64,000 bases of DNA from Escherichia phage naam. The position numbers were made by a program, and so were the translations under genes. Below the pieces are notes generated by a model. It made no database searches. It saw nothing but the letters and a program-made list of their open reading frames with translations, and was not told where the DNA came from. Shown here piece after piece: positions 1,107-45,714 of this stretch. Location: the sequence record MN850630.1. The stretch is one strand, 5' to 3'. Every line of letters starts with the position of its first letter. Position 1 is the stretch's first letter.

Positions 1107-1871
1107 TTGAAATTTATCTACAAAGAACACTACCATAAAGGTGTTGTGTGGAGTCTATTTGACGGGTCTGGTGGTGCAGTCATTGACTGGGCAAAAGCTG
1201 GGTACCTGTGCCTGTGCTTTAATGCAGAAGGCGCTGATCACGGCAGTTATGCAGAGGTGATCACCGATCATCCCAACATTCACTATGTGGACTATTGGAT
1301 TGACCCGTGGTTCCCTCAGGAAACTTTTTGCATGTATCCGGCTCCAGACTTTATTCTTGCATTTCCTCCGTGCACGCATTTAGCGGTATCAGGTGCTGCA
1401 CATTTTAAGAAAAAGCTGGCTAAGGACCCCATGATCCAAATTAATGCTGTAAAGGATGCTCGGGTTGCGGAAGAGCTGGGAGAGATTTACGATTGCCCGT
1501 GGCATGTAGAGAATCCTGTGGGTGTTATGTCCACACTGTGGCGCAAACCTGATTACCGTTTTCACCCTTCGGATTATGGCGGGTATTTACCGGAAGATGA
1601 TGTAAACCCATGGTTTCCTGAATTTATAGCTCCACGTGATGCCTATCCAAAAATAACTTGCGGCTGGATAGGTAATGGATTTATAATCCCAGCCACAAAA
1701 CCTGTCCCGCAAATAGTTGACGCGGTTAGCGGGTATTCCATGCAACACGCCAAGCTGGGTGGAAAGAGTGCAAGAACGAAGATGATTCGAAGCCTCACAC
1801 CACGTGGCTGGGCAAAAGCCGTATTCCTAGCAAACGAGCCTGTAGTAAGGAGCAGAATTAATGGGAAGTAA
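1107..1871 (+). CDS. DNA (cytosine-5)-methyltransferase-like protein
   Basis: Motifs LFDGSGG (motif I), PPCTHLAVSG (PCQ-like, Q to T), HVENPVG (ENV); TTG start 1107 after AGGAGA RBS assumed, longest frame from 1077. Confidence 0.5.
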   Translation: MKFIYKEHYHKGVVWSLFDGSGGAVIDWAKAGYLCLCFNAEGADHGSYAEVITDHPNIHYVDYWIDPWFPQETFCMYPAPDFILAFPPCTHLAVSGAAHFKKKLAKDPMIQINAVKDARVAEELGEIYDCPWHVENPVGVMSTLWRKPDYRFHPSDYGGYLPEDDVNPWFPEFIAPRDAYPKITCGWIGNGFIIPATKPVPQIVDAVSGYSMQHAKLGGKSARTKMIRSLTPRGWAKAVFLANEPVVRSRINGK

Positions 1872-3939
1872 ATTTATGGCATCTGCATACAACCGTTTCG
1901 GTGAGCCAAACCCGAAAGCAACTAAGTATAAAAGTGGGGGAAGTGTGAAACGAGACTATCGTGATGAAAAAGAAGTTGAAACTGTAGAGACTGTTTTAGA
2001 AAATACTAAAATTGTCCCTGTCCCACAACAAAATATCGGTCTGATGGCTGCACAATATTTTGGTGTGCGATCAGCATTGTCACAAGAAGACGGTGTGACA
2101 GTCACTGCAACATATTTCCCATATTACGACCGCTACGGAAATCTGTCCGGTTTCAAAAAGCGTGACTGGACTATTCCTAAAGAACAAAGGGGCCACTTCT
2201 CCGTTGTTGGCATCGTAAAGGCCAACTCCCAGATGTTTGGTCAAAAGCTGTGTGCATCTTCCAACAACCGTAAGCAGATTAACGTTTGTGAGGGAGAAGG
2301 TGATGTTATTGCAGCATGGCAGGCTGCATATCAGATACAAGTAAAAGGGATTCTCACCAACGCTAAAGCCCCGGCAAAGGTGAAGCAGTGGGCTAAAGAG
2401 GTCCAGGACGGGATCGACGCAGTTATCAACGGTGGTGATCTGGCAGGAAAACCCTGCCTGCCTTTTGTTGGAATTAACTGTGGATGTGCAAACGCAGTAG
2501 ATACTTTTGCAAACAATGAGAAGTTTATCCGTAGCTATGGAACAGTTGTGCTGGCAATGGATAACGATGCAGCTAACGAGGTAGAGAAGCAAAAACACGT
2601 CATTAAAGGTGTCGAGGCCACGCACAATATCGCAGCATTTTTGATGGCTGATAACGTTTACCACGTAGAATACCCTGGTGAAGTAAACGACCCTGACGGT
2701 GTAAAAGATATCCGAGACATGCTGAAGGCTAAAAAGCTGGAAGATATTGTCAACATGTTCCGGCATCCTGTTAAATATGTGCCTGATGCTGTGTCGGATT
2801 TAGAAGACTTCTCTATCGAGTCTTTGCGGAAAAAGACTTCCAACGGGGTAGATATCAGCGCAGAGTTCCCAAAACTGCAAAAAATGCTAAAAGGCTTGCA
2901 CAAAGGTACACTCGTAATGCTTACAGGCCCATCAGGTGGCGGTAAAACAACCGTAGCTAAAAAACTGGAACACTGTATTGCAAGATACCTAATGGACCCG
3001 ACATGCCCGAAGGCTGATGACTATGAAGAGGATGATCGTCTATGTATGATCCATCTTGAGGAGGACCCAGAGGAAGCAATTAACTCCTTGTATGCAAACC
3101 AGTTAGGGTTTGATGTTAAAGAGTTTGTTGAAGATCCTAGCCAGTTTTTAACTGATCAAGAACACGCAGAGATTCATCAGTCATGGGCAAAAGCTGGAAA
3201 AATCAAAGTGTTCAAACATTTCGGGTCTATTCCGGTGGATGAGTTGATTACCAAGCTTAAGCAAATGGTTTGCCTGTACCATTGCCGTTATATTGTGCTG
3301 GATCACCTGTCCATGGTAATTTCAGGGCTTAATGTTAAGGATGAGCGAAAAGAACTGGACATGGCTATGACCCAACTGGCTGCGTTTTGTAAGCAGTTTA
3401 ATGTGTTTATCTTGGTGATCGCTCACCTCAAACGTACAGAGATTGTGCCTCCTAAGGACAAGGATGGTAACCCGTTACCTTTCTGGTATCCTGTGCGAAA
3501 AGAGAATTTGCGAGGATCGGCGGGGCTTGAACAGTTGAGTTGGGTAGTCATAGGTGTCGAGGCCGAAGAAATGGTGGATCGTTCTCGTGGGCGTGTCCGT
3601 CTGGTAGGTCTTAAAAACCGTCCAGCAAAAACTTTAGGTATTGCTGACACTTTAGTTATGGACCCGCACACAGGTAAGTTCCATGATGCCAGTAACTGGT
3701 ACTGGGACAAAGAAATGCAAATGTTTACAGACGGAGAAGGTGGGGAGGTTGTTTGGAGACCTCAGGCTATGTTTGAGGATCAGGAGCATGCAGTTGTAGA
3801 AACACCTATGGGCAAGGTTGTGGCTGATAAGGTTGTAACTCCTACTGTTAAGCCTGTTGACACGCAGGAAGACCTCCAGTACGATGATCCGTCCTCTGAC
3901 CATGTTCCTGGTTTTGAGGATGATGAAACACCTTTTTAA
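1861..3939 (+). CDS. fused DNA primase-helicase (TOPRIM + DnaB-like)
   Basis: TOPRIM-like EGEGD and MDNDAANE; Walker A GPSGGGKTT; Walker B IVLDHL; acidic C-terminus EDDETPF. Confidence 0.85.
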   Translation: MGSKFMASAYNRFGEPNPKATKYKSGGSVKRDYRDEKEVETVETVLENTKIVPVPQQNIGLMAAQYFGVRSALSQEDGVTVTATYFPYYDRYGNLSGFKKRDWTIPKEQRGHFSVVGIVKANSQMFGQKLCASSNNRKQINVCEGEGDVIAAWQAAYQIQVKGILTNAKAPAKVKQWAKEVQDGIDAVINGGDLAGKPCLPFVGINCGCANAVDTFANNEKFIRSYGTVVLAMDNDAANEVEKQKHVIKGVEATHNIAAFLMADNVYHVEYPGEVNDPDGVKDIRDMLKAKKLEDIVNMFRHPVKYVPDAVSDLEDFSIESLRKKTSNGVDISAEFPKLQKMLKGLHKGTLVMLTGPSGGGKTTVAKKLEHCIARYLMDPTCPKADDYEEDDRLCMIHLEEDPEEAINSLYANQLGFDVKEFVEDPSQFLTDQEHAEIHQSWAKAGKIKVFKHFGSIPVDELITKLKQMVCLYHCRYIVLDHLSMVISGLNVKDERKELDMAMTQLAAFCKQFNVFILVIAHLKRTEIVPPKDKDGNPLPFWYPVRKENLRGSAGLEQLSWVVIGVEAEEMVDRSRGRVRLVGLKNRPAKTLGIADTLVMDPHTGKFHDASNWYWDKEMQMFTDGEGGEVVWRPQAMFEDQEHAVVETPMGKVVADKVVTPTVKPVDTQEDLQYDDPSSDHVPGFEDDETPF

Positions 3940-3997: not shown

Positions 3998-6775
3998 ATG
4001 AGCATGTGGTCGTTCGATTTTGAGTCATCCGGTTTGCTGGAAGACCCAGATCTTTATTATCACTGCGGCCTGTTTAAAGAGCTGAATAAGAACCGTTTTA
4101 TGCTGTTCCTTCCTCTGAATGACCGCACACACTACTCCGAGGAGGATATAGAGAAGGCCAAGAACTTTATTCTGGCAAAGAAAACTCTTTATAAGGATTT
4201 TGAAGTTCGCATAGCAGATTTTTCGGAGTTGGAAGGTTGGCTTACAGGAAATTCCGACTGGTCACCAACAGCTTTGAACTGCCATAACTGCTACAGTTAT
4301 GACTTTATGCTGATGGAGAGATTATCCGGTATTCATTTTGATATGTTCCGTGATCCTAAATGTATGGGGACTATCAACGACCACCAGGTTAACCTGTTTG
4401 ATACGTTGGCGATGAGCCGAATCTTGTGGCCTGATCGCCCTTTACCAAAAGGTTGTCCGGACTCCGTATTCAACCCGGTTACTAAGAAAATGCAGCCTGT
4501 TGGTCCTCACGGCCTTATGGCATGGGGCTACGCCCTTGGTAACCAGAAAGTTCAAATTGATGACTGGCGCGATCTTCCGTTGTGGAAGTATGTGGATCGT
4601 GTATTCGAGGACGTTATCATCCAGGAGCTACTCTGGAAAGAGCTGGTAGCGGAATCAAAAGGTGTATTCTACGGCAAATCTGACATGCAGAACTTTATGT
4701 ACGATCCTGCCAAAGAGAAGCCGAAAGGGTTCAAGAAGATCACCTGGAAGAACGCATTGCGCCGGGGTATGCTGCAACACTTCCTGATGGAGCTGCAGGC
4801 CCGTCAGGGTGTGTATTTTGACATAGATGGGGCTATTGCTTTACGTGACCGTTGCGATGCTTGGATGAAAGAAATCGCTGATCGTGTTGAACCACAACTA
4901 CCTTTAAAAGAGCTGTCAATGTCTCAGCGGCCCAAGTTCCCTGAAAAGCCGTTTAACCAAGATGGGACAATCTCCAATAATGGTTGGAAATGGTTAAAAG
5001 ATAAGCTTGGCTATCCTGTGGACATGAGTGCTTTAGAGTTCAAGGCCCCGCCTAAGCGAGCATTTACCTCTACAGGAGATGTCAGTAAGATGGGGATAAA
5101 ATGGTGTGAAGAGATGGGCTGCAAAGACCCAGATAAGATGGCTGATTTCTTGAGAGGCTATATTAAGGGCACCTCCACACCACAACCTTTGCCTAAAGAG
5201 CTAATGGATCAGGCAATAAGTGATCTACAGCAGAAGCGAATGCCGGACTGCAAGATACCTATGAAAATCAGCAACCAGGACGACATTAAGCGATACCTGA
5301 TCAGTGCTGGTTGGCTTCCGACAATGTGGAGAACTAAGGATGTAACTAAAGACAGCAAGAAGAAAGCTCTACCTGATGCAGATGTTGATGCACGAGTATA
5401 TGCATATATGGACGAGCTTTTAGAGTCAGAGTATTGTGACCTGATTATCAACTTCTGGAACAAAACTGATGCTAAGTTCCAGACAACCGTGCACAAGTTC
5501 CGAAGCTTTCCTAACTCCGAAAGGATTAAAAAGGAAGTATTCGGGAAAATACGTAGAAAAGCTAGGGCACTTATTACTTCTCCGCAACTGAAAGATACTT
5601 TTGGACACCTATGTCCAAATCTTGAAAAATTGAACGGAGAGATGGCTAAAGATATCGTCTTGTGGTTATCATTGCGAAACCGCAGATCGGTCCTTGATCC
5701 AATCAAGGAGGATAAGGTTGATACTGGTCTTCTTAATCACCCACGTTTGAAGATTGACCATAAGCTTCCTGCTAAAAGCTCTGGATTAACAAACACTTCC
5801 CGACAGAAACACAGTATTTGTGCAAACATGCCTAAACCATCTCCTAAAGTGGTTATGGGTAAAGAGATGCGTAGTCTGTGGGGTGTTCCTCCAGGATACT
5901 TTGAGATCGGTATTGACGGGTCCAACTTAGAGCAGCTTATCGGGGCTTGGGGTGCCTTTGAGTTCGACAACGGCTTGTATTATGATGTTGTAAGTAACGG
6001 AGACGCACACCAAAACAACGCCGAGGCATATACAAAAGTAGCAGGCAGAGAGGTATCTCGTAACGACGGTAAACCTATCACGTATGGGGTTATGTACGGG
6101 GCACAAAAAGACAAAGTTGCAGACATGCTGGATATCTCCCCAGAGTTGGGACAAAGGGTAATTGATGCACTTTGGGATGCCAACCCTGGTCTTAAGGGGC
6201 GTAAAGAAGATCTGGAGAAATTCTGGGAAGCAACGGGTAAGAAGTTTATCTACTCTTTTGATGGTCATGCTATCTGGACCCGATCTAAACACTCTTTACT
6301 TAATGCATACCAACAGAATGGTGGTGCATCGTTGTGTGACTTAGTTGGGATACTCATGCACCACCAAATGGTGAAGCGTGGGTGGTACGATGAAGGTGTT
6401 CGTCGTATTATTTATTACCATGACGAATATCAGCTTCAAGTCCCTGACACACCTAAGTATAAGACTGTGTACACCTTCGACACAATTGAAGAACTGGAAG
6501 CATTTAAGGCAGAGCAGGAGTCCAAACTTCATGTGTTCGACGGTCATAAGTACAAAAAGGCACGCAAGGATGAGGACGGAAACGAAGTGGTTGACAGAGA
6601 CGGAAACACGGTGTACGATCCTATCCTGAACGATGACGGAAAGCTTGAACTTATCTGGAGCCCTGTGGGTGAAATGGTGGTGCATTGCTTCTGGCAAGCT
6701 TCTAAAATGATGGGCGTCCCGTTTCAGATCACAGGTGAATACCTGTGTGGTCGTAATTGGGGTGATTGTCACTAA
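3998..6775 (+). CDS. DNA polymerase, family A, with 3'-5' exonuclease domain
   Basis: 925 aa; exo motif FDFESSG; PolA motif B K..YGVMYGAQ; motif C YYHDEYQL; AAGGAG RBS. Confidence 0.9.
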   Translation: MSMWSFDFESSGLLEDPDLYYHCGLFKELNKNRFMLFLPLNDRTHYSEEDIEKAKNFILAKKTLYKDFEVRIADFSELEGWLTGNSDWSPTALNCHNCYSYDFMLMERLSGIHFDMFRDPKCMGTINDHQVNLFDTLAMSRILWPDRPLPKGCPDSVFNPVTKKMQPVGPHGLMAWGYALGNQKVQIDDWRDLPLWKYVDRVFEDVIIQELLWKELVAESKGVFYGKSDMQNFMYDPAKEKPKGFKKITWKNALRRGMLQHFLMELQARQGVYFDIDGAIALRDRCDAWMKEIADRVEPQLPLKELSMSQRPKFPEKPFNQDGTISNNGWKWLKDKLGYPVDMSALEFKAPPKRAFTSTGDVSKMGIKWCEEMGCKDPDKMADFLRGYIKGTSTPQPLPKELMDQAISDLQQKRMPDCKIPMKISNQDDIKRYLISAGWLPTMWRTKDVTKDSKKKALPDADVDARVYAYMDELLESEYCDLIINFWNKTDAKFQTTVHKFRSFPNSERIKKEVFGKIRRKARALITSPQLKDTFGHLCPNLEKLNGEMAKDIVLWLSLRNRRSVLDPIKEDKVDTGLLNHPRLKIDHKLPAKSSGLTNTSRQKHSICANMPKPSPKVVMGKEMRSLWGVPPGYFEIGIDGSNLEQLIGAWGAFEFDNGLYYDVVSNGDAHQNNAEAYTKVAGREVSRNDGKPITYGVMYGAQKDKVADMLDISPELGQRVIDALWDANPGLKGRKEDLEKFWEATGKKFIYSFDGHAIWTRSKHSLLNAYQQNGGASLCDLVGILMHHQMVKRGWYDEGVRRIIYYHDEYQLQVPDTPKYKTVYTFDTIEELEAFKAEQESKLHVFDGHKYKKARKDEDGNEVVDRDGNTVYDPILNDDGKLELIWSPVGEMVVHCFWQASKMMGVPFQITGEYLCGRNWGDCH

Positions 6776-11242: not shown

Positions 11243-11659
11243 ATGACATTAGAAGATATCATTGTTAAACCTGAGAACTATGACCAATACAACCTGTCAA
11301 CTCAATCTGTAGACCTTGGATGCGCCACGGTCAGTGCGTGGATGGTTAACGGAAAAGAGCTGGATAAATGCTTAGAAGCTCACATGTCTATTAACAAGTT
11401 TCTGGATGAAAATACTCACTGGCTTGAGGGTGCAGGTGTGTATGCTTCATGGTTGGAGAGTATGGGATTCGACTACCAATCTGAAGAGGGGTGGTGGAGC
11501 TATTTAGCTATCTGCCCAGAGACGCTGCAATGCTTCATGAAATATTCTGAAGATTTGGAGTACCGGGCGGTGGTTGATAGTGCTATTGCCCGTTATAGCC
11601 GTAAACCTTTTTCCCACGACATTAAAACTGTGGAAGAATTTGTTGAAGTTTTCTGTTGA
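11243..11659 (+). CDS. hypothetical protein
   Basis: 138 aa, TAAGGAGA RBS. Confidence 0.55.
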   Translation: MTLEDIIVKPENYDQYNLSTQSVDLGCATVSAWMVNGKELDKCLEAHMSINKFLDENTHWLEGAGVYASWLESMGFDYQSEEGWWSYLAICPETLQCFMKYSEDLEYRAVVDSAIARYSRKPFSHDIKTVEEFVEVFC

Positions 11660-14205: not shown

Positions 14206-14395
14206 GCTTAAATCTGCATGGAACATCGCTGTGGGGGACGAGATCCGCATCCCAGGTGGAAAGACCATTATGAAGATATCACGTATCGAGTATGAAGGTG
14301 ATCGTGTATTTCATATCTTTGCAGAAGATGGTCGAGAAATTTATATACAGGCAGGCTCTCATATCTATATCCATAAGAAAGGGGACGACAAATGA
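14192..14395 (+). CDS. hypothetical protein
   Basis: 67 aa, GGAGGG RBS. Confidence 0.55.
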   Translation: MQMFKLKSAWNIAVGDEIRIPGGKTIMKISRIEYEGDRVFHIFAEDGREIYIQAGSHIYIHKKGDDK

Positions 14396-14724
14396 CAGAG
14401 ATCATCGTTTCAACTGCAGGGTATGTATTCCTGACAATCATTGCGTTGGCTATTCTGGTGGCGGTGTATGGATTTGTTATCCTGCCTATTCTTGAGACAT
14501 TTAGCTTGTGTCGGTGTTGGAGAAAAGCTTACGGACCACAACCGTGGAAAGACTGGTTTCATTTGGTGCGTATAGCGTTCTCTTATGCCTATGATCACTC
14601 CAGCAGTGCATGCGTAACCGGGTACCATGCCTACAACTGGAACTGGGAAGGGCTGGGGAGATGGACTGTTACAAAAACTATACCCTTACGGTTGTATAAA
14701 GGAAAGAACACACTGGGAGCCTGA
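14392..14724 (+). CDS. putative membrane protein
   Basis: 110 aa, hydrophobic N-terminal helix, AAGGGG RBS, ATGA overlap. Confidence 0.5.
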   Translation: MTEIIVSTAGYVFLTIIALAILVAVYGFVILPILETFSLCRCWRKAYGPQPWKDWFHLVRIAFSYAYDHSSSACVTGYHAYNWNWEGLGRWTVTKTIPLRLYKGKNTLGA

Positions 14725-14759
14725 TATTTTAAGTTATCAGGTTGCCAGAGATCAGGAGG

Positions 14760-15260
14760 ATTTCTAAAATGGATTTCCTCCTTTTGATATTTTACCTACC
14801 AGGATATTTTAAAATCCTTAGAAAATCAGAAAATGGATCGAAAACTAAAATGGATTTTTCAGAGCAGGCACGACGAGATGAACCACTCATCCTATCGTCT
14901 GCACCATATTCCAGACCACCATTACAGATTTCCCGCACATGCTCACACCCTTCTACTAGAACTTCCCCCACTTACCCTTGACCTTTTATAGTAATAATCC
15001 AACCACTACCTTGAAGTTGTGGCGCAGCTTTCCAAGTACTCGATCTGTTTTTCGTTTCAAAGATTGAATTTTCTGAAAATTTTTCTCGATAAATTTCTCA
15101 GTACTCGATCTGTTTTTCGTTTTCTGAATCGGATTTTCTGGAAATCGTTCCGGCTCTCGACCTGAAATTTTTGGGGACGAAATCGATTTTTCGTTTTCAG
15201 AAATGGATTTTTAAAATTTCTATATGGGAATATTTTAGTGGATACTATTTTATAGGAAAT
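14760..15260. repeat. AT-rich non-coding region with iteron-like direct repeats and palindromes
   Basis: AAATGGAT(T/C) four times; 23-nt direct repeat AGTACTCGATCTGTTTTTCGTTT at 15038 and 15100; palindromes ATTTTCTGAAAAT, AGGATATTTTAAAATCCT. Confidence 0.6.
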
Positions 15261-15358
15261 TGTTACGGAGGGTAATTAGCGTGCTAATTAAATTTATTAA
15301 ATGCGAGGAGTTCTCATTTAGAATTTTGAATGATAATCATTCTCGTTTGCAGAATAAC

Positions 15359-15400
15359 GGGCAGGCCCGGTGATTGTCTCCCGGCCCCTGTTGCCCCGGC
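15359..15400. repeat. GC-rich conserved hairpin element, copy 1
   Basis: GGCAGGCCCGGTGATTGTCTCCCGGCCCCTGTT; conserved core GGTG(A/G)TTGTCTCCC. Confidence 0.55.
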
Positions 15401-15498
15401 TTGTTATTATAGTATCACACAGGACAAAGAAGGCAAGGATTTTTTGCATAAATTTTTAAATGATAATGATAACCGTTCTCATTTTATGCAGCGCCCAT

Positions 15499-15535
15499 CC
15501 CCGGTGGTTGTCTCCCCCGTCACCGGTGCCTGCCG
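15499..15535. repeat. GC-rich conserved hairpin element, copy 2
   Basis: CCGGTGGTTGTCTCCCCCGTCACCGGTGCCTGCC; stem CCGGTG/CACCGG around TTGTCTCCC. Confidence 0.55.
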
Positions 15536-15737
15536 TCCTTTCGATAGGTATATTGTGCCACCTGGCGGGGCCGCTGTCAACACCTTTTCAAAAAATTTTT
15601 CTAACCTGATGCGCTAACCGTTGCAACCTGGCGGGGCCAGCCTGGCAGGACCTAACTGACCAGGTGGGAGAGGGTGAAATCTTGCAAACCTGGTAGGCCC
15701 ATGCTGTAGGGTAAACAATTGAAGAGGAGGTACAAAA

Positions 15738-15980
15738 ATGAAAGGTAATGCTACTCACCTGGGAAATGTAGCGATTAATGACGCTGAGGCTATCACCCTG
15801 GTTGAAAAGGCTATGGCGGGAGCGTTGGAACATAAAGAAGAGTACGAAAAAATGATGGTTAACCTGGCAGGGGCGGCGGCTGGAGAATTCTGCCCAAAAA
15901 ATAATTCTAACCAATGGTTGACAGCTCGGATAGTTCTGTTATTCTTATCCTCGCAAGGTGAACAACACCACACTAATTAA
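15738..15980 (+). CDS. hypothetical protein
   Basis: 80 aa, GAGGAGG RBS. Confidence 0.55.
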   Translation: MKGNATHLGNVAINDAEAITLVEKAMAGALEHKEEYEKMMVNLAGAAAGEFCPKNNSNQWLTARIVLLFLSSQGEQHHTN

Positions 15981-16259: not shown

Positions 16260-16658
16260 ATGAAAACCACTACCTTTAATTTTGATAATGCGGACTTTTC
16301 TTTTTCTGATGTCAAGAACTGCCGCCGTGATCGTGGATTCTACAAGGCTTATAATCTGGTTGGCCTGGACGATGACAATAATTTGCACGAAGTAGCTGAG
16401 ATCCGGTATTATGCCGCCGCCAGCGGGAACACTCACTACTGCGTGTTTTGGATTCACGACAACAAGAACAATAAGTACGGTTATACTGGCGGCAAGGCGA
16501 GCGGTCACGGTTACGATAAAGCTAACGCAGCACTTGAGAGCGCATTAAATGCTATGGGGATCACTGCCGACGGCTGGATCTACGAAGAAGAGTTTTTGTC
16601 GGCACTTGCTGACCACCTGGGCTATAAAAAACACATTGTAACATGCGCCCACGAATAA
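16260..16658 (+). CDS. hypothetical protein
   Basis: 132 aa, AAGAGGA RBS. Confidence 0.6.
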   Translation: MKTTTFNFDNADFSFSDVKNCRRDRGFYKAYNLVGLDDDNNLHEVAEIRYYAAASGNTHYCVFWIHDNKNNKYGYTGGKASGHGYDKANAALESALNAMGITADGWIYEEEFLSALADHLGYKKHIVTCAHE

Positions 16659-16740: not shown

Positions 16741-17136
16741 ATGAATAAGAACGTACGCCGCATCATGAACGAACTGGCAAACGATGAAAAAATTATTGAT
16801 ATGCATTTGGTCAACATTTGCCGCCGTTGTGTAACATATAACAACCGCGCCGCAAAAGCGCGTGAGATGAACGCAAAAGGCACCTTAAAGCCCTTTCAGG
16901 TGGTTGTAAAATCTATAACTAGCGCAGCAGGCCAGGCGCAGGACCACAACAACGAGAGCGCTAATATTGATCCGTCTTACGTAATGAAACGGATCCGGAC
17001 TTGCAAGAATAAAGAGCAGGTATATAACGTCATAGATTGGCTGGACTCCCTGGGCGATGTGGTTTACAATAGGTTTTCTGCAGCTATCGAGATCCAGCTT
17101 GACAGATTGGACGGGAAAGTACTAAAAACTTATTGA
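16741..17136 (+). CDS. hypothetical protein
   Basis: 131 aa, AAAGGAAA RBS. Confidence 0.6.
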   Translation: MNKNVRRIMNELANDEKIIDMHLVNICRRCVTYNNRAAKAREMNAKGTLKPFQVVVKSITSAAGQAQDHNNESANIDPSYVMKRIRTCKNKEQVYNVIDWLDSLGDVVYNRFSAAIEIQLDRLDGKVLKTY

Positions 17137-24065: not shown

Positions 24066-24200
24066 ATGAGAAAGATAATTATTACCATGGGGATCGTGGC
24101 GGCAATGTTGGCGATCTTTCCCTTTATGGTTAGGTATGTGCTGATTAATGTTGTCCTGGTAGTCAGCGATCTGGTGTTATATATTAACTCATTGTTTTAG
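24066..24200 (+). CDS. small membrane peptide (44 aa)
   Basis: Hydrophobic; weak RBS. Confidence 0.3.
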   Translation: MRKIIITMGIVAAMLAIFPFMVRYVLINVVLVVSDLVLYINSLF

Positions 24201-24708: not shown

Positions 24709-24794
24709 ATAAAAGTGTTTTGGTACTGATTTTGGGGTTGACTTGTTCGGCCCCTTTTGCTATTCTTATTAAACGGGCGGCACTTGGGAACAGG

Positions 24795-24817
24795 GGGAGA
24801 CAATCACCAGGCCTGCC
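24795..24817. repeat. GC-rich conserved element, copy 3 (inverted relative to copies 1-2)
   Basis: GGGAGACAATCACCAGGCCTGCC is reverse complement of copy-1 core with one mismatch. Confidence 0.55.
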
Positions 24818-24842
24818 TGTCATATAAGAACTATAAAAACCG

Positions 24843-24871
24843 TTGACATCTGCCATGGGGTGAGGTAACAT
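24843..24871 (+). promoter_or_regulatory. sigma70-type promoter (TTGACA-17-TAACAT)
   Basis: Read directly upstream of 24926 gene. Confidence 0.5.
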
Positions 24872-24925
24872 TTATCTTGAAGGGGCAAAAGTGCCCACAC
24901 AACAACCAGAAGAGAGGAAAACATT

Positions 24926-25198
24926 ATGTCAAGCTGGATTAATCAAGAAGTCGAATCACGTTTTAATGCTATTTGGGATCTCATCGAAAAAGAGGACGGA
25001 ACATCAAGCCCTTATCTCAATAATCTTGAATTCCATTTCGTGGAAGCGATGAACGCAGAACATGATCACGAAGGTGGTGCGGATGAATTCGCTAAAGGAT
25101 ATGGCTTCAACAATGCCAACGAAATGATCGAGGCGGTTGTACTCCAGGCTGAGGAAGATTATCAATTAAAAACGCTTGAATTCTGCCGCCGTAAGTAA
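24926..25198 (+). CDS. hypothetical acidic protein
   Basis: 90 aa, AGAGAGGAAAA RBS. Confidence 0.55.
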   Translation: MSSWINQEVESRFNAIWDLIEKEDGTSSPYLNNLEFHFVEAMNAEHDHEGGADEFAKGYGFNNANEMIEAVVLQAEEDYQLKTLEFCRRK

Positions 25199-26088: not shown

Positions 26089-26106
26089 TTTTTTAACTGA
26101 ATTATC

Positions 26107-26132
26107 AAGGGGCTTAGGCCCCTTTCTTTTTG
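26107..26132 (+). terminator. rho-independent terminator
   Basis: AAGGGGC-ttag-GCCCCTT + TCTTTTTG. Confidence 0.65.
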
Positions 26133-26135
26133 TCT

Positions 26136-28580
26136 GCTCTTCCCCCTACCATAAACGGCCCTACCTGGCAAGTGGAATAATTGACGAGCCATCAATCCTA
26201 CACACTGTACAAACATACATGTAAAATAGCTATTGCATAACCTTTCATTGTGTGGTAGCGGTGCTATTTTTTACCAGTTTTCCTTCCAAAATTGCACGTA
26301 ATGCCGCTATTGCACAAATTTTAACCTGATGCACATCTCCAATATCTTGTCAACAACTAAAAATCTTTATAAGTCATACACTTACACAGCATCGAAAGCG
26401 TGTTCTACGCGAAAAATCGAGTATAACTATAGCCGCCAGATCTCAGAATTCACGTACGCACGCCATTCTATAGCCTGCAAAGTATTTATTCCAACCACAG
26501 AATAACGGAATAGTCAATACCTGCATAAAATAATTATTAGTGTAAACTGCATAACATAAATCAGCTCAGGTGTCAACATTTTTCGTAAACAGTCCGAAAT
26601 TATCACGATGAGTTATCATAAACAGAGAAATCTTTAGTCGTCTAATGTTTACTGTACATTACTATACTGACTGGAATCATTAGATGACTAAGAGAAAGAT
26701 AAGAAATAATTAATAATGTAATTGTTTTACCTGTAACAATAAGGCAACTATGCAAACGAATGGCATGGCGCGACGGAGTCGCGACATAATATAAAAGCAG
26801 TAACCATCACCCCCGTGATAGTTTGTCTGCAATCTATTAATCAGATCATAGTTGCCTTGTATTCAGTTAATCATGACATGATAAGCAAGGCAACTATAGA
26901 TCTTCTAATAGTTGCCCTGCTTTTATATTATGTCATAGAAACACCCGAAGGGGTGACCAAAGGTCACCTGGCATAGCCAGTGAAAGATTATTAACTTGCT
27001 AATAGTTATCATGCAAACGAATGGCATGGCTGATTATCGGTGTGTAAACAGTCAATCATGTAAATGGTTAGCATGTGAACAATCAGAAATGTAAACAATC
27101 CAGTGTGTAAACTAATAGGTGTGTAAAAGTGTCATGTTGTGTCAGTTAGGTCACATTATGTCAGACAAGTTTTTCTCCTCTTTGTCAAGTGCTGCATGAA
27201 AAATTTACAAGCTTGTATGGTAGCATTTTTGCGGCCCTGTTTACATTCAGTGTTGTATGTATAATCCTTGTTGTGTGGGCGTTTAGACGTCTGGACGGTC
27301 AGAAGTCTGCAGGTTAATATCTAATCTATCGGCTGCTAACTATATCCCACACAAATAGTAAGAAATATAATTGTTATGTGCGTAAACAGTAACCCATGTT
27401 ATCAATCCCTGTATGTATCGCCAGTGGTGCGCATAATGGGTATTATGTTAAATTGCCCGTAATGATAACAGTTCTCACAATGATAGGTATTCTCATTCAC
27501 CCCCACAAGATAGGTTGCAAATGTTGTGCCACTGTGTGAACGGCCTGGCCTATTAATTTGCCTCACTGCCTTGATATTTGAGAATTATTATAAGAATGAG
27601 AAGTATTCCCATTTCGTCCGCCTGGCAGCACTCCTGTAGGTCAGGTCAAAATCGTGGTAGAACTAGACCTATCCGGATATTTCTGGCTGACTCTTCAGGT
27701 CTGTGTGGGAAAAGCCAACCTCTCCGGCGGGGCAGGGGGAGGTCAATTAAAAAATTTACGTGGTGTATGAAGCGCTCTTCAGGTAAGGCAGGTATTATGG
27801 GATGAAACCCGCTTCAGGCAATGATATTTGTGGGTGTGATATTTGCTGGAAGGCCAGATATGACGGGACTCCCGGCGGGGCAGGGGTAGTACAGACAGGG
27901 AAAATATGGGGATGTAGTTGGGGAAATTGATCAGACAGGTAGAGTATGGAATATGTTACAGGTATGTTAAATATGGAGGTTGAATATCTGTAGGATTTGT
28001 GTGTAAAATCAAAGACTTAAGGGGTGTTGTGGTATTTTCTATAAATAATTCAAGTTTAATAGGCAATATTTGTCTCTATCCGCTTTGTGTGGTAAACAGA
28101 TTCAGATGAGATTGGTTTACAAGTGTATACATAATATACAAATTAAAGATACAAGAAACCCCCCTCCCCCTTCGGCTACCATTCACCTTTTCCTCTGACT
28201 GGTACTTAAACACTTATTCAGACTCTTCAGGTTATCACCCATATATCATATGGCAGTGACTGGTGTCCTCCGGCCCCTCTTTCGTCACCCGTCCGCTTCG
28301 CCATGCTAATGCCATAGCTAATGGTTCGGTTGTTCACCCTGTTCACTCAGGTGTATCTCTATACCCCTTCAAACCGAAGAGAACAGAAAACCCGAATTAC
28401 TCGGTAAAAGAAAAGAGAAGAACTTAATTTTATCAGGATAGGCAAGAATGTCAAGGCATGACTGCTCACTAAACAAGCAAACAGTCATGTGTGGGAGGTA
28501 AGTGATTGTGGTGGTAGGAAATTTAGTTGAAAGATGTGTTATAGGTGCTTCCAGCACTTTAGCCGGGCAGCTAATTGTGT
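26136..28580. other. repeat-dense non-coding region between convergent gene blocks
   Basis: No convincing ORF; direct and inverted repeats, GTGTAAAC-like motif cluster, GC-rich direct repeats. Confidence 0.6.
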
Positions 28581-28581
28581 G

Positions 28582-28797
28582 TCAGTCCAGCGGTTCATCC
28601 TCTACTTCACTGAAATCAATGTTCATGGTCTCTTCCCAACCATCGATCTCAGCACAAGAGTGGAGTTCTTTAGGGTTTACTCCCAAAGCCTCAGCAACAG
28701 AGTCTATATTTAACACCTCTGGCAGGTATGATTCATCGAATTCAAGGTAAATCAGGCCACGAGTGTTGTCAGCTCCACCAAATATCTCTATCTTCAT
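28582..28797 (-). CDS. small acidic protein
   Basis: 71 aa, GAGGAG RBS. Confidence 0.5.
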   Translation of the reverse strand: MKIEIFGGADNTRGLIYLEFDESYLPEVLNIDSVAEALGVNPKELHSCAEIDGWEETMNIDFSEVEDEPLD

Positions 28798-28918
28798 AAA
28801 ATCTCCTCTGGGAATGAGAGTGTGAACAGGGTTTTATACGTTCCAATACGCTGGAATTATGCACGTTTGCCTCTTCAGGCCATGCTTTAGCATGAGGAAC
28901 CTGTGTGGGCTCGGTGCT

Positions 28919-30181: not shown

Positions 30182-30487
30182 TTATTCTACAGAGCGTTTG
30201 AACAGAATGTCTGCCTCAGACATGTGCTCAACCTCTTCTTCGATTTTAGCGCGACGTTTTTCAGCCTCATAGCGGATATCGAACTCGGTAGCCACCAGAG
30301 ATTTGATGAATTTAGGAGAATACAGGTGATCCTGCTTCTCAACGAGAATGATATCCTTAATGGCATCTTTCAGATCTTTAATCTGAAGTTGGAGTTCCAC
30401 CAGTTCTTCGATTGTTTTGCGAAGGCGATCACGCTCTGCAGTGTCAGAAGGAAGAGAGGTGAACAGTTCAACTTTAGATTTAGCCAT
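30182..30487 (-). CDS. hypothetical coiled-coil protein
   Basis: 101 aa, AAGGAGA RBS. Confidence 0.55.
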   Translation of the reverse strand: MAKSKVELFTSLPSDTAERDRLRKTIEELVELQLQIKDLKDAIKDIILVEKQDHLYSPKFIKSLVATEFDIRYEAEKRRAKIEEEVEHMSEADILFKRSVE

Positions 30488-44781: not shown

Positions 44782-45714
44782 TCATTTACCACAAATCTTC
44801 TTGTATACCTCTTCTACCGTGTCAAACACTTCAGGCCTGTAGTAGAAAAACTCAGTGCTACCGTCAAATTTTACAGGAAAGTTTATTTTATACTTGCTCA
44901 AGGCCTTATGCACAGATTTTTCTAAATCTACCATGTTTTGAGTTGATCCGCTCCATGTTTTTACTACGTGAAGAGTGTGGACACCTGCGCCAGATTTACG
45001 AGCACTGTTAAGCACCTCATTTTTCCTCCTGTGCATTTTAACGCATACACCGATTTTCATAAGTGTTGGCACTTCTAAGTCATCAACCATAATGTAGAGT
45101 TTACCGTACTCATGAGATAAGAATCCATTTTGTGCGCATTTACAGCAGCCACGACCACTTTTTAGGTTATTAGGTTTAGCAGACCACTTATACCCACAAA
45201 TTTTGCACCTACATTGCACTTTTGTGTTATCATTGGCAATTTTCTCTAATATTTCTATGTCTGGGTTGGCTTTGTGGATAATTGCAGCGTGCTCCTTATG
45301 GGTTAACGCTTGACTTTGCCCACGTCTTAAGTCATAGCACTCTGGGCAGCCGTTTCTTTGGTATAAGTGGTTTTCAGGGTATTGTTCAAACACACCGTGT
45401 TCAGGGCAAACAATTTTTACAGGCGTTCTCATGTTCGCATATTTGACTAATGAGTAATCGTACTTGTCCCCATGAACAGCCATAGCCTCTTTTATGAACT
45501 CTTCAGTGTTCTTTTTCGCTGACCCACCACACCTTGGACAACCATGATTCTTGAAAGCATGTGCCACAGGGGTTTGCCAGAACTCACCGTGCTCAGGACA
45601 AATTATACACACAGGTGTCTTGTTGTTTTTATACTCCACTTTGAAGTAATCATATTTGTCACCATGTATAGTCTGAGCTTTTTCTATAAACTCTTCGGTT
45701 GTTAGTCTTCTCAT
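44782..45714 (-). CDS. T5orf172/GIY-YIG-like domain protein with repeated zinc ribbons (homing-endonuclease-like)
   Basis: Three repeats of GDKYDY...CPEHG...GCP.CG; C-terminal KIGV...TEFF resembles T5orf172 domain. Confidence 0.5.
   Translation of the reverse strand: MRRLTTEEFIEKAQTIHGDKYDYFKVEYKNNKTPVCIICPEHGEFWQTPVAHAFKNHGCPRCGGSAKKNTEEFIKEAMAVHGDKYDYSLVKYANMRTPVKIVCPEHGVFEQYPENHLYQRNGCPECYDLRRGQSQALTHKEHAAIIHKANPDIEILEKIANDNTKVQCRCKICGYKWSAKPNNLKSGRGCCKCAQNGFLSHEYGKLYIMVDDLEVPTLMKIGVCVKMHRRKNEVLNSARKSGAGVHTLHVVKTWSGSTQNMVDLEKSVHKALSKYKINFPVKFDGSTEFFYYRPEVFDTVEEVYKKICGK

What the first reader, a model, noticed from the sequence alone, without database searches (positions are those of the whole stretch)
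14760..15260. AT-rich iteron-like repeat region lacking genes
About 500 bp with no credible ORF contains four direct copies of AAATGGAT(T/C), a 23-nt direct repeat (AGTACTCGATCTGTTTTTCGTTT at about 15038 and 15100), and several AT-rich palindromes. Direct repeats plus AT-rich palindromes are the classical signature of a replication origin, but could also be a cluster of regulator binding sites. The track ORF 14742..14981 has no RBS and a low-complexity product.
Basis: partly seen in the sequence, partly recalled or inferred. Interest (0 to 1): 0.45.

Follow-up and report, generated by a model that had tools for sequence, protein, structure and literature searches.

The report
Conserved repeat-rich non-coding phage control region
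The flagged repeats are real and are the left part of a 1-kb gene-free control region that rV5-like phages have kept almost unchanged across several genera; it looks most like a transcription-primed replication origin, but that is not proven.

Summary
Four of the five AAATGGATY copies in the 64 kb lie within 450 bp, and the exact 23-mer occurs only at 15035 and 15100. No reading frame in the region evolves like a gene. The window is an rV5-like Vequintavirus. The finding is the left part of a larger gene-free element (14725-15737). From left to right it holds a GATATTT/AAATGGAT repeat block, a fast-evolving C-rich spacer, three tandem units of 65-74 nt, Fur-box-like palindromes, and sigma70-like promoters on the minus strand that point back into the AT-rich repeats. 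The same order, copy numbers and similar spacing recur in Seunavirus, Mydovirus, Henunavirus and Certrevirus, and partly in Phapecoctavirus, although the flanking genes are unrelated. The repeat blocks are as conserved as neighbouring genes (86-100% against 82-100%), while the spacer drops to 53-71%. My best reading (about 0.38) is a replication origin of the T4 oriE/oriF or T7 kind, with promoters feeding an unstable, iteron-bearing stretch. A transcription-control hub is nearly as likely (about 0.3). There are no DnaA or IHF sites and no adjacent initiator gene. The same motifs also occur in a second non-coding region (about 26.1-28.9 kb). I found no paper describing the element.

The parts
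14755..14800 (+). Hairpin AGGAGGA...TCCTCCT followed by TTTTGATATTTT. Likely an intrinsic terminator for the upstream + strand gene 14392-14724. It encloses the first AAATGGATT copy.
   Evidence: Fold -15.6 kcal/mol, z -1.8 on + against -1.2 on -. rV5 has an A-to-G change that keeps the pair as G.U only on the + strand. Function is inferred.
14755..14862 (+). Block A: same-orientation short repeats. GATATTT at 14786 and 14803 (a third copy at 14723 overlaps the upstream stop codon), and AAATGGAT at 14767, 14831 and 14848.
   Evidence: Identity to divergent Vequintavirus relatives is 92.6-96.3%, although the sequence immediately to the left is unrelated in rV5 and L004. Homologous GATATTT arrays with mostly 11-13 bp spacing, followed by GAAATGGTTTTC-type arrays, sit at the same distance from the palindrome anchor in most other genera.
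14863..15035 (.). Fast-evolving spacer, strongly C-rich and G-poor on the + strand. It contains most of the spurious 'track ORF'.
   Evidence: 53-71% identity with indels. G minus C is -17 to -23 per 60 nt, and this bias is retained in rV5 and L004 despite sequence divergence. It is weak or absent in most other genera.
15026..15235 (+). Three tandem units (15026-15090, 15091-15164, 15165-15235). Each has a head GTACTCGATC (degenerate in unit 3), T-tracts, and a tail box of the AAATGGATTTT family. The exact 23-mers lie at 15035-15057 and 15100-15122.
   Evidence: Three-unit arrays with 65-78 bp spacing occur in GAP31, SSE121, KNP2, Mydo, Hena1, CR3 and F2M1E. Units 1 and 2 have no RNA structure beyond shuffles on either strand. 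Identity within the genus is 86-94%.
15167..15204 (+). 16-bp hairpin inside unit 3, followed by GGATTTTTAA. Terminator-like on the + strand.
   Evidence: Flagged by the terminator scan. RNA fold -18.0 kcal/mol with z -3.3 on +, against z -0.9 on -.
15043..15343 (.). Low-stability, A+T-rich stretch. Candidate DNA-unwinding element.
   Evidence: One of the three least stable 300-bp windows in 64 kb (99.9th percentile); AT 68-70%. Not unique: 26.46 kb scores slightly lower and 60.3 kb the same.
15278..15293 (.). Palindrome AATTAGC-GT-GCTAATT. It is a perfect 16-mer, AATTAGCATGCTAATT, in rV5 and L004.
   Evidence: Read directly from the sequence. Function unknown.
15300..15347 (.). Two palindromes of the family AATGA(G/T)AATCATT(C/A)TCATT, 29 bp apart: 15300-15318 (weak) and 15329-15347. 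They resemble Fur boxes.
   Evidence: The 29-bp register (-6, -35, -64, -93) is conserved across genera. The window's best sites match the Fur consensus at 15/19 and 16/19, while mononucleotide shuffles give about 0.35 sites of 15/19 or better per window. The core is identical to listed natural Fur boxes (PMC10665472).
15348..15411 (-). Module 1: a minus-strand -10 TATAAT at 15411-15406 with a weak -35, followed leftward by the GC-rich leader motif GGGAGACAATCACCGG (15382-15367 on the minus strand).
   Evidence: The homologous promoter in seven other genomes scores 9-10 of 12 at the same position. The hairpin itself is not supported by covariation. The window's own copy falls below the scan threshold (-35 TTGCCT with a 19-nt spacer, read from the sequence).
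15459..15483 (.). Palindrome of the same family in module 2: AATGATAACCGTTCTCATT at 15465-15483. The overlapping Fur-consensus register GATAATGATAACCGTTCTC at 15462-15480 scores 16/19.
15484..15580 (-). Module 2: minus-strand promoter TTGACA-17-CACAAT with a TG extension (15580 to 15552), followed leftward by the leader motif GGGAGACAACCACCGG (15516-15501 on the minus strand).
   Evidence: A minus-strand promoter is found at this relative position in 11 of 11 genomes scanned.
15559..15737 (+). Right edge: four ACCTGGCGGGGCC-type repeats (15559, 15625, 15639, 15687) and the putative + strand promoter TTGCAA-17-TGTAGG (15682-15710) for gene 15738-15980.
   Evidence: Read from the sequence; the promoter is inferred. 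PMBT16 has a natural 47-bp deletion between two of the repeats.

Best explanation
The flagged repeats are part of a 1-kb cis-acting, non-coding DNA element, 14725-15737. I think it is most likely a replication origin of the transcription-primed kind. Proposed mechanism: host RNA polymerase starts at the conserved sigma70-type promoters on the minus strand (-10 at 15411-15406, and 15580-15552) and transcribes leftward, against the flanking genes, into the unstable A+T-rich three-unit array (about 15040-15340). There the RNA forms a hybrid with the template, or simply opens the duplex, and is used to prime leftward DNA synthesis by the phage's T7-like replisome (primase-helicase 1861-3939, family-A polymerase 3998-6775). 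The same-orientation repeat arrays (GATATTT, the AAATGGATTT family, and the CTCGATC unit heads), held at fixed distances, would bind a phage or host protein that shapes or licenses this complex. The Fur-box-like palindromes lying just downstream of the promoters (to their left) may gate it. Shown: the repeats exist, are non-coding, are under purifying selection, and share order, orientation and spacing across genera; the promoter-like sites are positionally conserved on the minus strand only; the DNA is among the least stable in the window. Inferred: that the promoters fire, that an R-loop or primer forms, that any protein binds the repeats, and that replication starts here.
For: Non-coding and constrained. 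The same architecture occurs in Seunavirus, Mydovirus, Henunavirus and Certrevirus, and partly in Phapecoctavirus, with unrelated flanking genes. Repeat positions relative to the palindrome anchor agree within about 10 bp over 600 bp in most genera although the spacer sequence is free to vary (SSE121 and Hena1 are offset by about 30 bp). GATATTT arrays show mostly 11-13 bp spacing, all on one strand within the element. Only minus-strand sigma70-like promoters are positionally conserved (7/7 and 11/11 genomes), and they lead to no conserved ORF. In Seunavirus and Mydovirus a third such promoter abuts unit 3. Segment 15043-15343 is in the top 0.1% for duplex instability. Units 1 and 2 lack RNA structure, so they act as DNA. 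The leftward transcript over the spacer would be very G-rich in Vequintavirus, which favours RNA-DNA hybrids: (the link to hybrids is my inference). A T7-like replisome is encoded 8-13 kb upstream. [quoted passage not shown] The rV5 authors could not locate an origin by skew analysis, so the question is open (PMC3606486).
Against: There is no replication data of any kind. No DnaA boxes or IHF sites occur above background. No recognisable initiator gene is adjacent. No skew change is reported here (PMC3606486), and in the window GC skew is lower to the right of the gap, the opposite of a simple leading-strand expectation. The palindrome and GATATTT families also occur at about 27.46-27.84 kb, so the factors that bind them are not specific to this locus. 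That second non-coding region is at least as AT-rich and unstable. The 65-78 bp unit spacing is not typical of iterons. This window's module-1 promoter is weak by consensus. Terminator-like hairpins and operator-like palindromes fit a purely transcriptional role equally well.
Confidence: 0.38

Rival explanations
1. A transcription-control hub at the boundary between two + strand gene sets, the replication and metabolism genes to the left and small early-type genes to the right. Terminator-like hairpins stop rightward transcription. The palindromes act as operators for host Fur or a phage repressor. The repeat arrays bind a phage regulator or nucleoid proteins. The minus-strand promoters make antisense or interfering RNAs that time the early-to-middle switch.
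For: Terminator-like hairpins on the + strand at 14755-14800 and 15167-15204. Other genera have a well-supported + strand terminator to the right of the palindromes. Palindrome arrays in a strict 29-bp register look like classical operators. They match documented Fur boxes. The same motif families occur at a second non-coding locus, as expected for a trans-acting regulator with several targets. In an EC152 training study, changes in unit 1 and in the second non-coding region co-occurred with a change in a PHROG-639 'transcriptional regulator', whose homologue is at window 30182-30487 (PMC13307863). A third copy of the promoter-plus-leader module drives an ordinary gene at 24752-24925.
Against: It does not explain why about 600 bp of ordered repeats with conserved spacing are needed, nor why all conserved promoters point away from the next gene into DNA with no ORF. 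In Certrevirus the units lack T-runs, so they are not three terminators. The EC152 changes convert the record's first bases to the consensus, so they may be reference errors or standing variation.
Confidence: 0.3
2. A DNA-handling site tied to the genome ends. It would be either a packaging recognition (pac) region or a boundary for DNA entry like the injection stop region of phage T5, lying about 8-9% of the genome in from a terminus located in the second non-coding region.
For: Klebsiella phage KPP-1 has a 514-bp terminal repeat (twofold coverage, PhageTerm) at 116,316-116,829 (PMC9862379). That maps to its counterpart of the second non-coding region, 8 kb from its copy of this element. In the window the two regions are about 12 kb apart out of roughly 137 kb. 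The T5 stop region is a 1.2-1.7 kb untranslated stretch 7.9% from the end, with ordered repeats more conserved than the nearby ORFs (10.1101/866236). The EC152 GenBank record is opened exactly at the head of unit 1.
Against: The reported terminal repeat is in the other non-coding region, not this one. rV5 is described as circularly permuted, and a close relative as headful-packaged (PMC3606486; PMC13211470). The terminase gene is about 72 kb away in EC152. The paired DnaA boxes and 131-bp inverted repeats that mark the T5 region are absent. Two-step entry has never been reported for these phages. The EC152 break may be arbitrary, and its two record ends share no repeat.
Confidence: 0.1
3. The repeats are the body of one or more non-coding RNAs, for example a protein-sponge RNA with repeated motifs or small RNAs made from the Fur-box promoters, and they act as RNA rather than DNA.
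For: Promoter-like sites lead into the region and no ORF follows. GGA-containing motifs looked frequent on the + strand when I read by eye; this was not counted with a tool. Unit 3 and the 14755 hairpin fold better than shuffles. Other genera carry a structured, terminator-ended block nearby.
Against: No Rfam family matches. Units 1 and 2 show no structure on either strand. The GC-rich leader hairpin shows no covariation, and its variable tetranucleotide changes without compensation. The GGA motif is not kept in other genera, where the box reads AAATGGTTTT or AAATCGTATT. Conservation of absolute spacing and orientation is more typical of DNA sites.
Confidence: 0.1
4. Chance repeats in a neutral intergenic spacer, with no function.
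For: Some of the short AT-rich matches are at chance level, and AA/TT periodicity is only at about the 99th percentile.
Against: The repeat blocks are conserved as well as or better than the flanking genes, while an internal spacer decays. The same architecture is found in at least five genera. The region is retained in 112 of 121 matching phage records at 80% coverage or more.
Confidence: 0.02

Closest known systems
Bacteriophage T4 oriE
   Same: It depends on an early, sigma70-type promoter that needs no phage factor. [quoted passage not shown] Here, GATATTT repeats show mostly 11-13 bp spacing next to host-type promoters and are conserved across genera.
   Different: There is no sequence similarity and the phage family is different. 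This element also has three units of about 70 bp and palindrome arrays. Even in T4 the role of the repeats in origin activity is unproven. No repEA/repEB-like genes were identified here.
T4 oriF/oriG and the T7 primary origin (promoter plus downstream A+T-rich unwinding element, with the transcript as primer)
   Same: Promoters are directed into an A+T-rich, easily melted segment. Tandem promoters are a feature of the T7 origin (my own knowledge: phi1.1A and phi1.1B followed by an AT-rich region). The phage has a T7-like replisome with a gp4-type primase-helicase and a family-A polymerase (PMC3016281).
   Different: Those origins are about 100 bp and need no repeats. Their promoters are phage-specific (MotA-dependent, or for T7 RNA polymerase), whereas these are host sigma70-type. 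R-loop formation and priming were not tested here.
Iteron-type origins of plasmids and lambdoid phages (for example lambda ori and the R6K gamma origin)
   Same: Several same-orientation direct repeats lie next to an A+T-rich stretch.
   Different: The repeats here are 7-11 bp motifs or units of about 70 bp, not 17-22 bp iterons. No initiator gene is adjacent or overlapping. There are no DnaA or IHF sites.
Injection stop (iss) repeat region of phage T5
   Same: It is a large untranslated region with an ordered set of direct repeats and palindromes, conserved better than the neighbouring ORFs across divergent relatives. It lies roughly 8% of the genome from a probable physical end (10.1101/866236).
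   Different: Paired DnaA boxes and 131-bp inverted repeats are absent. The element is not inside a long terminal repeat. Two-step injection is not known in these phages.
Fur operators of Enterobacteria (iron boxes)
   Same: The palindromes match the 19-bp consensus GATAATGATAATCATTATC at 14-17 positions. They share their core with listed natural boxes GATAATGAGAATCATTATT and TGTAATGATAACCATTCTC. Their strong conservation across phages of six host genera would fit a conserved host protein.
   Different: About half the copies carry a symmetric T-to-G / A-to-C change relative to the consensus. They form 29-bp-phased arrays of one to four sites, and they lie downstream of, rather than over, the best-supported promoters. 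Binding was not tested, and a phage-encoded repressor is equally possible.

Membership tests
Transcription-primed phage origin (T4 oriF/oriG, T7 primary origin) | A promoter oriented into the element | tested here: met
   Sigma70-like sites at conserved positions occur on the minus strand only, in 7/7 and 11/11 genomes. The window site is 15580-15552, with a second -10 at 15411-15406. These are consensus matches only; no transcript data exist.
Transcription-primed phage origin (T4 oriF/oriG, T7 primary origin) | An A+T-rich unwinding element immediately downstream of the promoter | tested here: met
   Segment 15043-15343 is one of the three least stable 300-bp windows in 64 kb, with AT 68-70%. 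It begins about 55 nt downstream of the nearer promoter.
Transcription-primed phage origin (T4 oriF/oriG, T7 primary origin) | A persistent RNA-DNA hybrid used as primer, with replication starting at the site | not testable with these tools
   This needs R-loop mapping, marker-frequency sequencing or a plasmid amplification assay.
T4 oriE-type origin | A cluster of evenly spaced direct repeats of about 12 nt, conserved in related phages | tested here: inconclusive
   GATATTT spacing is 12/12 in GAP31 and Mydo, 13/12 in CR3 and F2M1E, and 11/18 in KNP2. In this window it is 63 and 17, with only 3 copies. The array is clearer in other genera than here.
Iteron-type theta origin | An initiator (Rep/O-type) gene adjacent to or overlapping the repeats | tested here: not met
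   The flanking ORFs 14392-14724, 16260-16658 and 16741-17136 have no Pfam family, and neither does GAP31_042. Flanking genes differ between genera. Only Pfam was used, so a novel initiator is not excluded.
Iteron-type theta origin | DnaA boxes and/or IHF sites next to the repeats | tested here: not met
   There is no exact TTWTNCACA or WATCAANNNNTTR in the window's gap. One-mismatch DnaA hits number 3 against 3.1 expected, and none is positionally conserved across all genera.
T5 injection stop region | Eight DnaA boxes in pairs within long inverted repeats | tested here: not met
   One search found no DnaA boxes. One search found no inverted repeat longer than 19 nt.
T5 injection stop region | Location in a terminal repeat about 8% from the genome end, with A1/A2-type genes | tested here: inconclusive
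   The distance to the presumed terminus region is about 12 kb of roughly 137 kb. That terminus is inferred from a different genus (PMC9862379). A1/A2 homologues were not searched for.
Fur operator | A match to the 19-bp Fur consensus well above chance | tested here: met
   16/19 at 15462 and 15/19 at 15326. These are the best and joint second-best matches in 64 kb. Mononucleotide shuffles give about 0.35 sites of 15/19 or better per window.
Fur operator | The operator overlaps the -35/-10 of the regulated promoter, and Fur binds it | tested here: inconclusive
   A + strand TTGAAT-18-CAGAAT overlapping the 15329 palindrome scores only 8/12 (read from the sequence). The supported promoters are on the other strand, 50-110 nt upstream of the palindromes in the direction of transcription. 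Binding cannot be tested here.
pac site of headful-packaging phages | Proximity to the terminase genes, or packaging-series ends mapping to the site | tested here: not met
   The terminase large subunit is about 72 kb away in EC152. The only mapped terminal repeat in the subfamily lies in the other non-coding region (PMC9862379). No read data are available for this phage.
CRISPR-like mini-array or solitary repeat units | Conserved repeats separated by variable spacers of foreign origin | tested here: not met
   The inter-repeat segments are themselves conserved across genera, for example GAAAAAATTTTT. The copy number is fixed at three.
Cluster of intrinsic terminators | Each unit forms a stable hairpin followed by a U-run | tested here: not met
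   Only unit 3 does so (z -3.3). Units 1 and 2 fold no better than shuffles. Certrevirus units end in CGTATTCTC with no T-run.
Known RNA families (Rfam) | A covariance-model match | tested here: not met
   There are no hits at gathering score in the window. The only hits are chance-level, at E 0.18 and 1, in 14600-15800. Five related loci gave none.

The most novel reading that the evidence does not exclude
A host-iron-gated phage origin. Under this reading, the 29-bp-phased palindromes are genuine Fur sites that control whether the leftward sigma70 transcripts can enter the three-unit A+T-rich array and prime replication. rV5-like phages across Enterobacterales would then couple the start of DNA replication to the host's iron status, through a conserved nucleoprotein assembly built on the GATATTT, AAATGGATTT and CTCGATC repeats.
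Probability: 0.1. Interest if true: 0.8.

Novelty: new variant of a known kind. Interest (0 to 1): 0.5.

Why it matters
rV5-like phages (Vequintavirinae) are widely isolated and are used in phage-therapy and biocontrol cocktails. Their origin of replication is unknown, and the original rV5 genome paper tried and failed to find it. This element is the best conserved non-coding DNA near the replication genes. It is shared by phages of Escherichia, Klebsiella, Cronobacter, Salmonella, Enterobacter, Erwinia and Proteus, and I found no paper that describes it. GenBank records cover it with inconsistent small 'hypothetical protein' ORFs. If it is the origin, it gives a defined 1-kb fragment for engineering, for replication assays, and for interpreting coverage profiles in metagenomes. 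If the palindromes are Fur sites, it would be a rare case of a virulent phage reading host iron status. If it is only a regulatory hub, the annotation of more than 100 genomes should still be corrected, and the shared motifs link it functionally to a second non-coding region that probably holds the genome ends.

Tried and rejected
1. Coding potential. tblastx between genera gave hits in all six frames with similar scores, so there is no conserved reading frame. ORF 14742-14981 sits in the least conserved DNA.
2. Known RNAs. Rfam found nothing at gathering or relaxed thresholds, and there are no tRNAs.
3. A leader hairpin with covariation around CCGGTGRTTGTCTCCC. RNAalifold found no consensus pairs, and the variable tetranucleotide changes without compensation. 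It is a conserved sequence motif, not a proven structure.
4. Three tandem terminators or three tandem promoters as an explanation for the units. Units 1 and 2 do not fold. Certrevirus units lack T-runs. No -35/-10 pair is conserved inside the units.
5. A CsrA-type sponge RNA with GGA motifs. The GGA is not conserved in other genera.
6. A CRISPR-like mini-array. The 'spacers' are conserved.
7. DnaA and IHF sites are absent.
8. Host or plasmid origin of the sequence. There is no match in 5,426 E. coli genomes, and the only 'plasmid' hit is an rV5-like phage genome deposited as a plasmid.
9. Identity with the terminal repeat reported for KPP-1. That repeat lies 8 kb away, in the other non-coding region.
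10. A+T-tract phasing as a distinctive bend signal. It is only at about the 99th percentile and is not exceptional.
11. The strand-biased spacer as a universal feature. It is specific to Vequintavirus.
12. Literature searches for a described origin, transcriptome or Fur regulation in Vequintavirinae found none.
Full report
IDENTITY AND CONTEXT. The window is an rV5-like Escherichia myophage of the genus Vequintavirus, 96% identical over the test region to phages bov10K2, rV5_ev168 and JeffSchatz. Genes run rightward from 1 to about 26 kb and leftward from about 29.5 kb to 64 kb. Upstream of the finding lie a DnaB-like primase-helicase (1861-3939) and a family-A DNA polymerase (3998-6775), which together make a T7-type replisome. 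The finding sits inside the rightward block, between gene 14392-14724 and gene 15738-15980.

CHECK OF THE OBSERVATION.
- AAATGGATY occurs at 14767, 14831, 14848 and 15201. The only other copy in the 64 kb is at 45122 on the other strand, and about 2.4 copies are expected by chance across both strands of the whole window.
- The 23-mer is exact at 15035 and 15100 and occurs nowhere else, even allowing three mismatches.
- The two 23-mers are the cores of three tandem units starting at 15026, 15091 and 15165, with spacings of 65 and 74 nt.
- The region is 68% A+T at both ends but only 53% in the middle.
- The gene-free stretch is twice as long as reported, from 14725 to 15737.

IT IS NON-CODING. 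GenBank records place different small 'hypothetical' ORFs across the gap. Translated comparison with other genera gives similarity in all six frames at similar scores, which is the signature of DNA-level conservation. An alignment of close and moderately divergent relatives, summarised by block, separates the gap into three kinds of DNA:
- Block A (14755-14862) is 92.6-96.3% identical in the divergent relatives and 100% in JeffSchatz.
- The units and the palindrome/promoter modules (15036-15585) are 84-100% identical. The flanking genes compared are 82-100% identical (one short downstream gene falls to 60% in L003).
- The spacer 14863-15035 is only 53-71% identical in the divergent relatives and carries 1- and 2-nt indels.

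ANATOMY, left to right on the + strand.
1. A hairpin with a T-run at 14755-14800, probably the terminator of the upstream gene. An rV5 substitution keeps the stem only as a + strand G.U pair.
2. Block A, with GATATTT at 14723, 14786 and 14803, and AAATGGAT at 14767, 14831 and 14848.
3. The spacer, which is extremely C-rich on the + strand. G minus C is -17 to -23 per 60 nt, and the bias persists in rV5 and L004 although the sequence diverges.
4. The three units. Each has a head GTACTCGATC, T-tracts, and a tail box of the AAATGGATTTT family.
5. A palindrome, AATTAGCGTGCTAATT, at 15278.
6. Two modules. Each has a palindrome of the family AATGA(G/T)AATCATT(C/A)TCATT (15329 and 15465, plus a weak one at 15300), the GC-rich motif CCGGTGRTTGTCTCCC (15367 and 15501), and, on the minus strand, a sigma70-like promoter (-10 TATAAT at 15411-15406, and TTGACA-17-CACAAT at 15580-15552).
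7. Four ACCTGGCGGGGCC-type repeats, and the promoter of the next gene.
A third copy of the promoter-plus-GC-motif module lies in the opposite orientation at 24752-24830, upstream of an ordinary gene. This shows that the promoter and the motif belong together on one strand, which in the gap is the minus strand.

COMPARATIVE EVIDENCE. A sensitive DNA search showed that about 60-160 bp around 15290-15445 is recognisable in distant genera, mostly in DNA with no annotated feature under the match. I fetched loci from the following phages:
- Seunavirus: GAP31, SSE121 and LNA4.
- Mydovirus: KNP2 and Mydo.
- Henunavirus: Hena1.
- Certrevirus: CR3 and F2M1E.
- Phapecoctavirus: ESCO13 and phiWec186.
All have a gene-free gap of 0.8-1.2 kb. 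The flanking genes have no homologue in this window.
- Outside Phapecoctavirus, every genus has exactly three units with 65-78 bp spacing and CTCGATC-type heads.
- Every genus has a left-hand GATATTT array, usually with 11-13 bp spacing and all on one strand within the element. Outside Phapecoctavirus this is followed by an 11-12 bp periodic GAAATGGTTTTC-type array.
- The positions of these elements relative to the main palindrome agree within about 10 bp in most genera: GATATTT at about -612, -556, -545 and -532, and unit heads at about -295, -221 and -154. SSE121 and Hena1 are offset by about 30 bp. This holds although the intervening sequence is not conserved.
- The palindromes form arrays of one to four copies in an exact 29-bp register.
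- A promoter scan found no positionally conserved + strand promoter in the gap. It found minus-strand promoters at +102 to +75 (7 of 7 non-Vequintavirus Vequintavirinae), at about +245/+270 to +217/+242 (11 of 11 genomes, including this window), and at -53 to -82, directly abutting unit 3, in Seunavirus and Mydovirus.

PHYSICAL PROPERTIES. Segment 15043-15343 is one of the three least stable 300-bp windows in the 64 kb. The others are at about 26.46 kb and 60.3 kb. Units 1 and 2 have no RNA structure beyond shuffled controls on either strand, while unit 3 forms a strong + strand hairpin. There are no exact DnaA or IHF sites, and near-matches are at background. Rfam finds nothing. The sequence has no relative in E. 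coli chromosomes or true plasmids.

A SECOND LOCUS WITH THE SAME MOTIFS. The stretch from about 26.1 to 28.9 kb, where the two gene blocks converge, also lacks credible genes. It is the most A+T-rich part of the window. It carries three palindromes of the same family (27461, 27479, 27595) and four GATATTT copies (27572-27837). Apart from one marginal site at 24071, these are the only other copies of the palindrome family in the window. In Klebsiella phage KPP-1, a 514-bp stretch with twofold read coverage that PhageTerm called a direct terminal repeat lies at 116,316-116,829 (PMC9862379). That is KPP-1's counterpart of this second region and carries the same palindromes. KPP-1's copy of the element under study is 8 kb away. 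So the genome ends, at least in that genus, are probably in the second region and not in the flagged one.

OTHER PUBLISHED HINTS.
- The rV5 genome paper looked for an origin by skew analysis. It found only changes that track transcription direction, and it describes the genome as circularly permuted (PMC3606486).
- A close relative is reported as headful-packaged (PMC13211470).
- A 2026 training study of the Seunavirus EC152 reported co-occurring changes at record positions 4 and 23 and at 11597/11603, together with P14T in a 'transcriptional regulator' (PMC13307863). I found that positions 4 and 23 lie in unit 1 of this element, because the EC152 record is opened exactly at the head of unit 1. 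Positions 11597/11603 lie in EC152's second non-coding region. The regulator is a PHROG-639 protein with a 56% identical homologue at window 30182-30487. Both unit-1 changes convert the record to the consensus seen in GAP31, so they could be reference errors or standing variation. I treat this as weak evidence.
- The palindromes match the Fur consensus at 14-17 of 19 positions. They share their core with natural Fur boxes listed in PMC10665472.

INTERPRETATION. It is well supported that this is a functional, cis-acting, DNA-level element that predates the split of several genera. I put this at about 0.85.

What the element does is not settled. The feature that most discriminates between the readings is that every conserved promoter points leftward, against the genes, into unstable repeat-bearing DNA with no ORF. 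That is the logic of T4 oriF/oriG, which consist of a promoter plus a downstream A+T-rich unwinding element with an R-loop primer. It is also the logic of T4 oriE, which has an early promoter plus evenly spaced 12-nt repeats conserved in relatives (PMC3016281). From my own knowledge, the T7 primary origin works the same way, with tandem promoters followed by an A+T-rich region. The phage's T7-like replisome fits this. I therefore rank a transcription-primed, iteron-bearing origin first, at 0.38.

A transcription-control hub is close behind at 0.30. Operators, terminator-like hairpins and a shared motif set at two loci are exactly what a regulator with several targets would produce. A packaging- or entry-related site gets 0.10. 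It would resemble the T5 injection stop region (10.1101/866236), but the defining DnaA boxes are absent and the mapped terminal repeat is elsewhere. A non-coding RNA body gets 0.10, and chance gets 0.02. The remaining 0.10 is left for other or combined roles.

NOVELTY. I found no paper that describes this element. In kind, whether origin or control region, it is familiar. Its specific build is not: three units of about 70 bp at fixed distances from short-repeat arrays, Fur-like palindromes in a 29-bp register, and inward-facing host-type promoters. I therefore rate it a new variant of a known kind and give it moderate interest (0.5).

Noticed in passing
window 26090-28900: A second, larger non-coding stretch lies where the + and - gene blocks converge. 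It is the lowest-GC and least stable DNA in the window. It has an 18-nt perfect inverted repeat (26783/26917) and a 20-nt exact direct repeat (26750/27011). It also carries three palindromes of the same family (27461, 27479, 27595) and four GATATTT copies (27572-27837). It probably corresponds to the 'non-coding' box in the rV5 genome map and to the 514-bp terminal repeat reported for KPP-1. It is a rival site for an origin or packaging signal.
   Followed up: partly
window 15300-15347 and 15459-15483; L005, L008, L010 and L021 at about 1440-1560: Palindromes AATGA(G/T)AATCATT(C/A)TCATT occur in arrays with an exact 29-bp register and match the Fur-box consensus at 14-17 of 19 positions. Fur control of a virulent phage locus would be unusual. 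A phage repressor is an alternative.
   Followed up: partly
window 24709-24925: A third copy of the promoter-plus-GGGAGACAATCACC module lies in + orientation. TTGACT-17-TATTCT overlaps a terminator-like hairpin, GGGGTTGACTTGTTCGGCCCC followed by TTTT. A second promoter and gene 24926-25198 follow. The overlap of a stem-loop with an early promoter recalls the 'promoter-early stem-loop' cassettes described in T4-type phages (from memory).
   Followed up: partly
L005:1636-1767 and the equivalent positions in L007, L008, L021, L022 and L010: In the other genera, the space between the two rightmost minus-strand promoters holds a highly conserved block (CTTTACAAATCTTTACAAAT, then CTACCGGCGATCCACCTTCC). 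It ends in an 11-bp + strand hairpin with four conserved G.U pairs, one compensated pair and a U-rich tail, which looks like a + strand terminator. This could mark a roughly 200-nt + strand RNA starting near the palindromes. The block is absent from this window, which instead has a duplicated palindrome/hairpin module.
   Followed up: partly
window 14863-15035: This spacer is extremely C-rich and G-poor on the + strand, and the bias is retained despite only 53-71% identity within the genus. It could be a Rho-loading site for rightward read-through RNA, or it could make the leftward RNA G-rich and prone to forming hybrids.
   Followed up: partly
window 15086-15095: TCGATAAATT is an exact match to the high-affinity H-NS nucleation motif, as I recall it from the literature. 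It lies at the junction of units 1 and 2 and is conserved within Vequintavirus. A single 10-mer could be chance.
   Followed up: no
window 30182-30487 (minus strand): This 101-aa protein belongs to PHROG 639, 'transcriptional regulator' (E 1e-21), with a sub-threshold hint of a GapR-like DNA-binding domain. Its EC152 homologue acquired P14T together with changes in both non-coding regions in a phage-training study. It is a candidate binder of the shared motifs.
   Followed up: partly
L027:1-30 and L028 end (EC152, PP681140.1): The EC152 GenBank record is opened exactly at the head of tandem unit 1, about 8 nt (TACTCGAT) are missing relative to GAP31, and there is no terminal repeat between the record ends. 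Either the assembly broke there or a real end maps there.
   Followed up: partly
search results: Sixteen to nineteen records named 'Campylobacter phage' (host Campylobacter jejuni) are 92-96% identical to this E. coli rV5-like phage. The host labels look doubtful.
   Followed up: no
hit H79, CP057073.1: A 137.5-kb rV5-like phage genome is deposited as a non-mobilizable 'plasmid' of an E. coli isolate from cattle faeces. This could reflect a carrier state or contamination of the culture.
   Followed up: no
window 15649-15695 compared with L002 (PMBT16): PMBT16 has a natural 47-bp deletion between two of the CCTGG(C/T)(A/G)GG repeats. This part of the right edge is therefore dispensable, and the repeats are prone to recombination.
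   Followed up: no
window 15552-15580, 15682-15710 and 24752-24780; L005 and L008 promoters: Many sigma70-like promoters in these phages share a GC-rich spacer containing GGCCCC or GGGGC between the -35 and -10. This may be a lineage-specific promoter feature.
   Followed up: no
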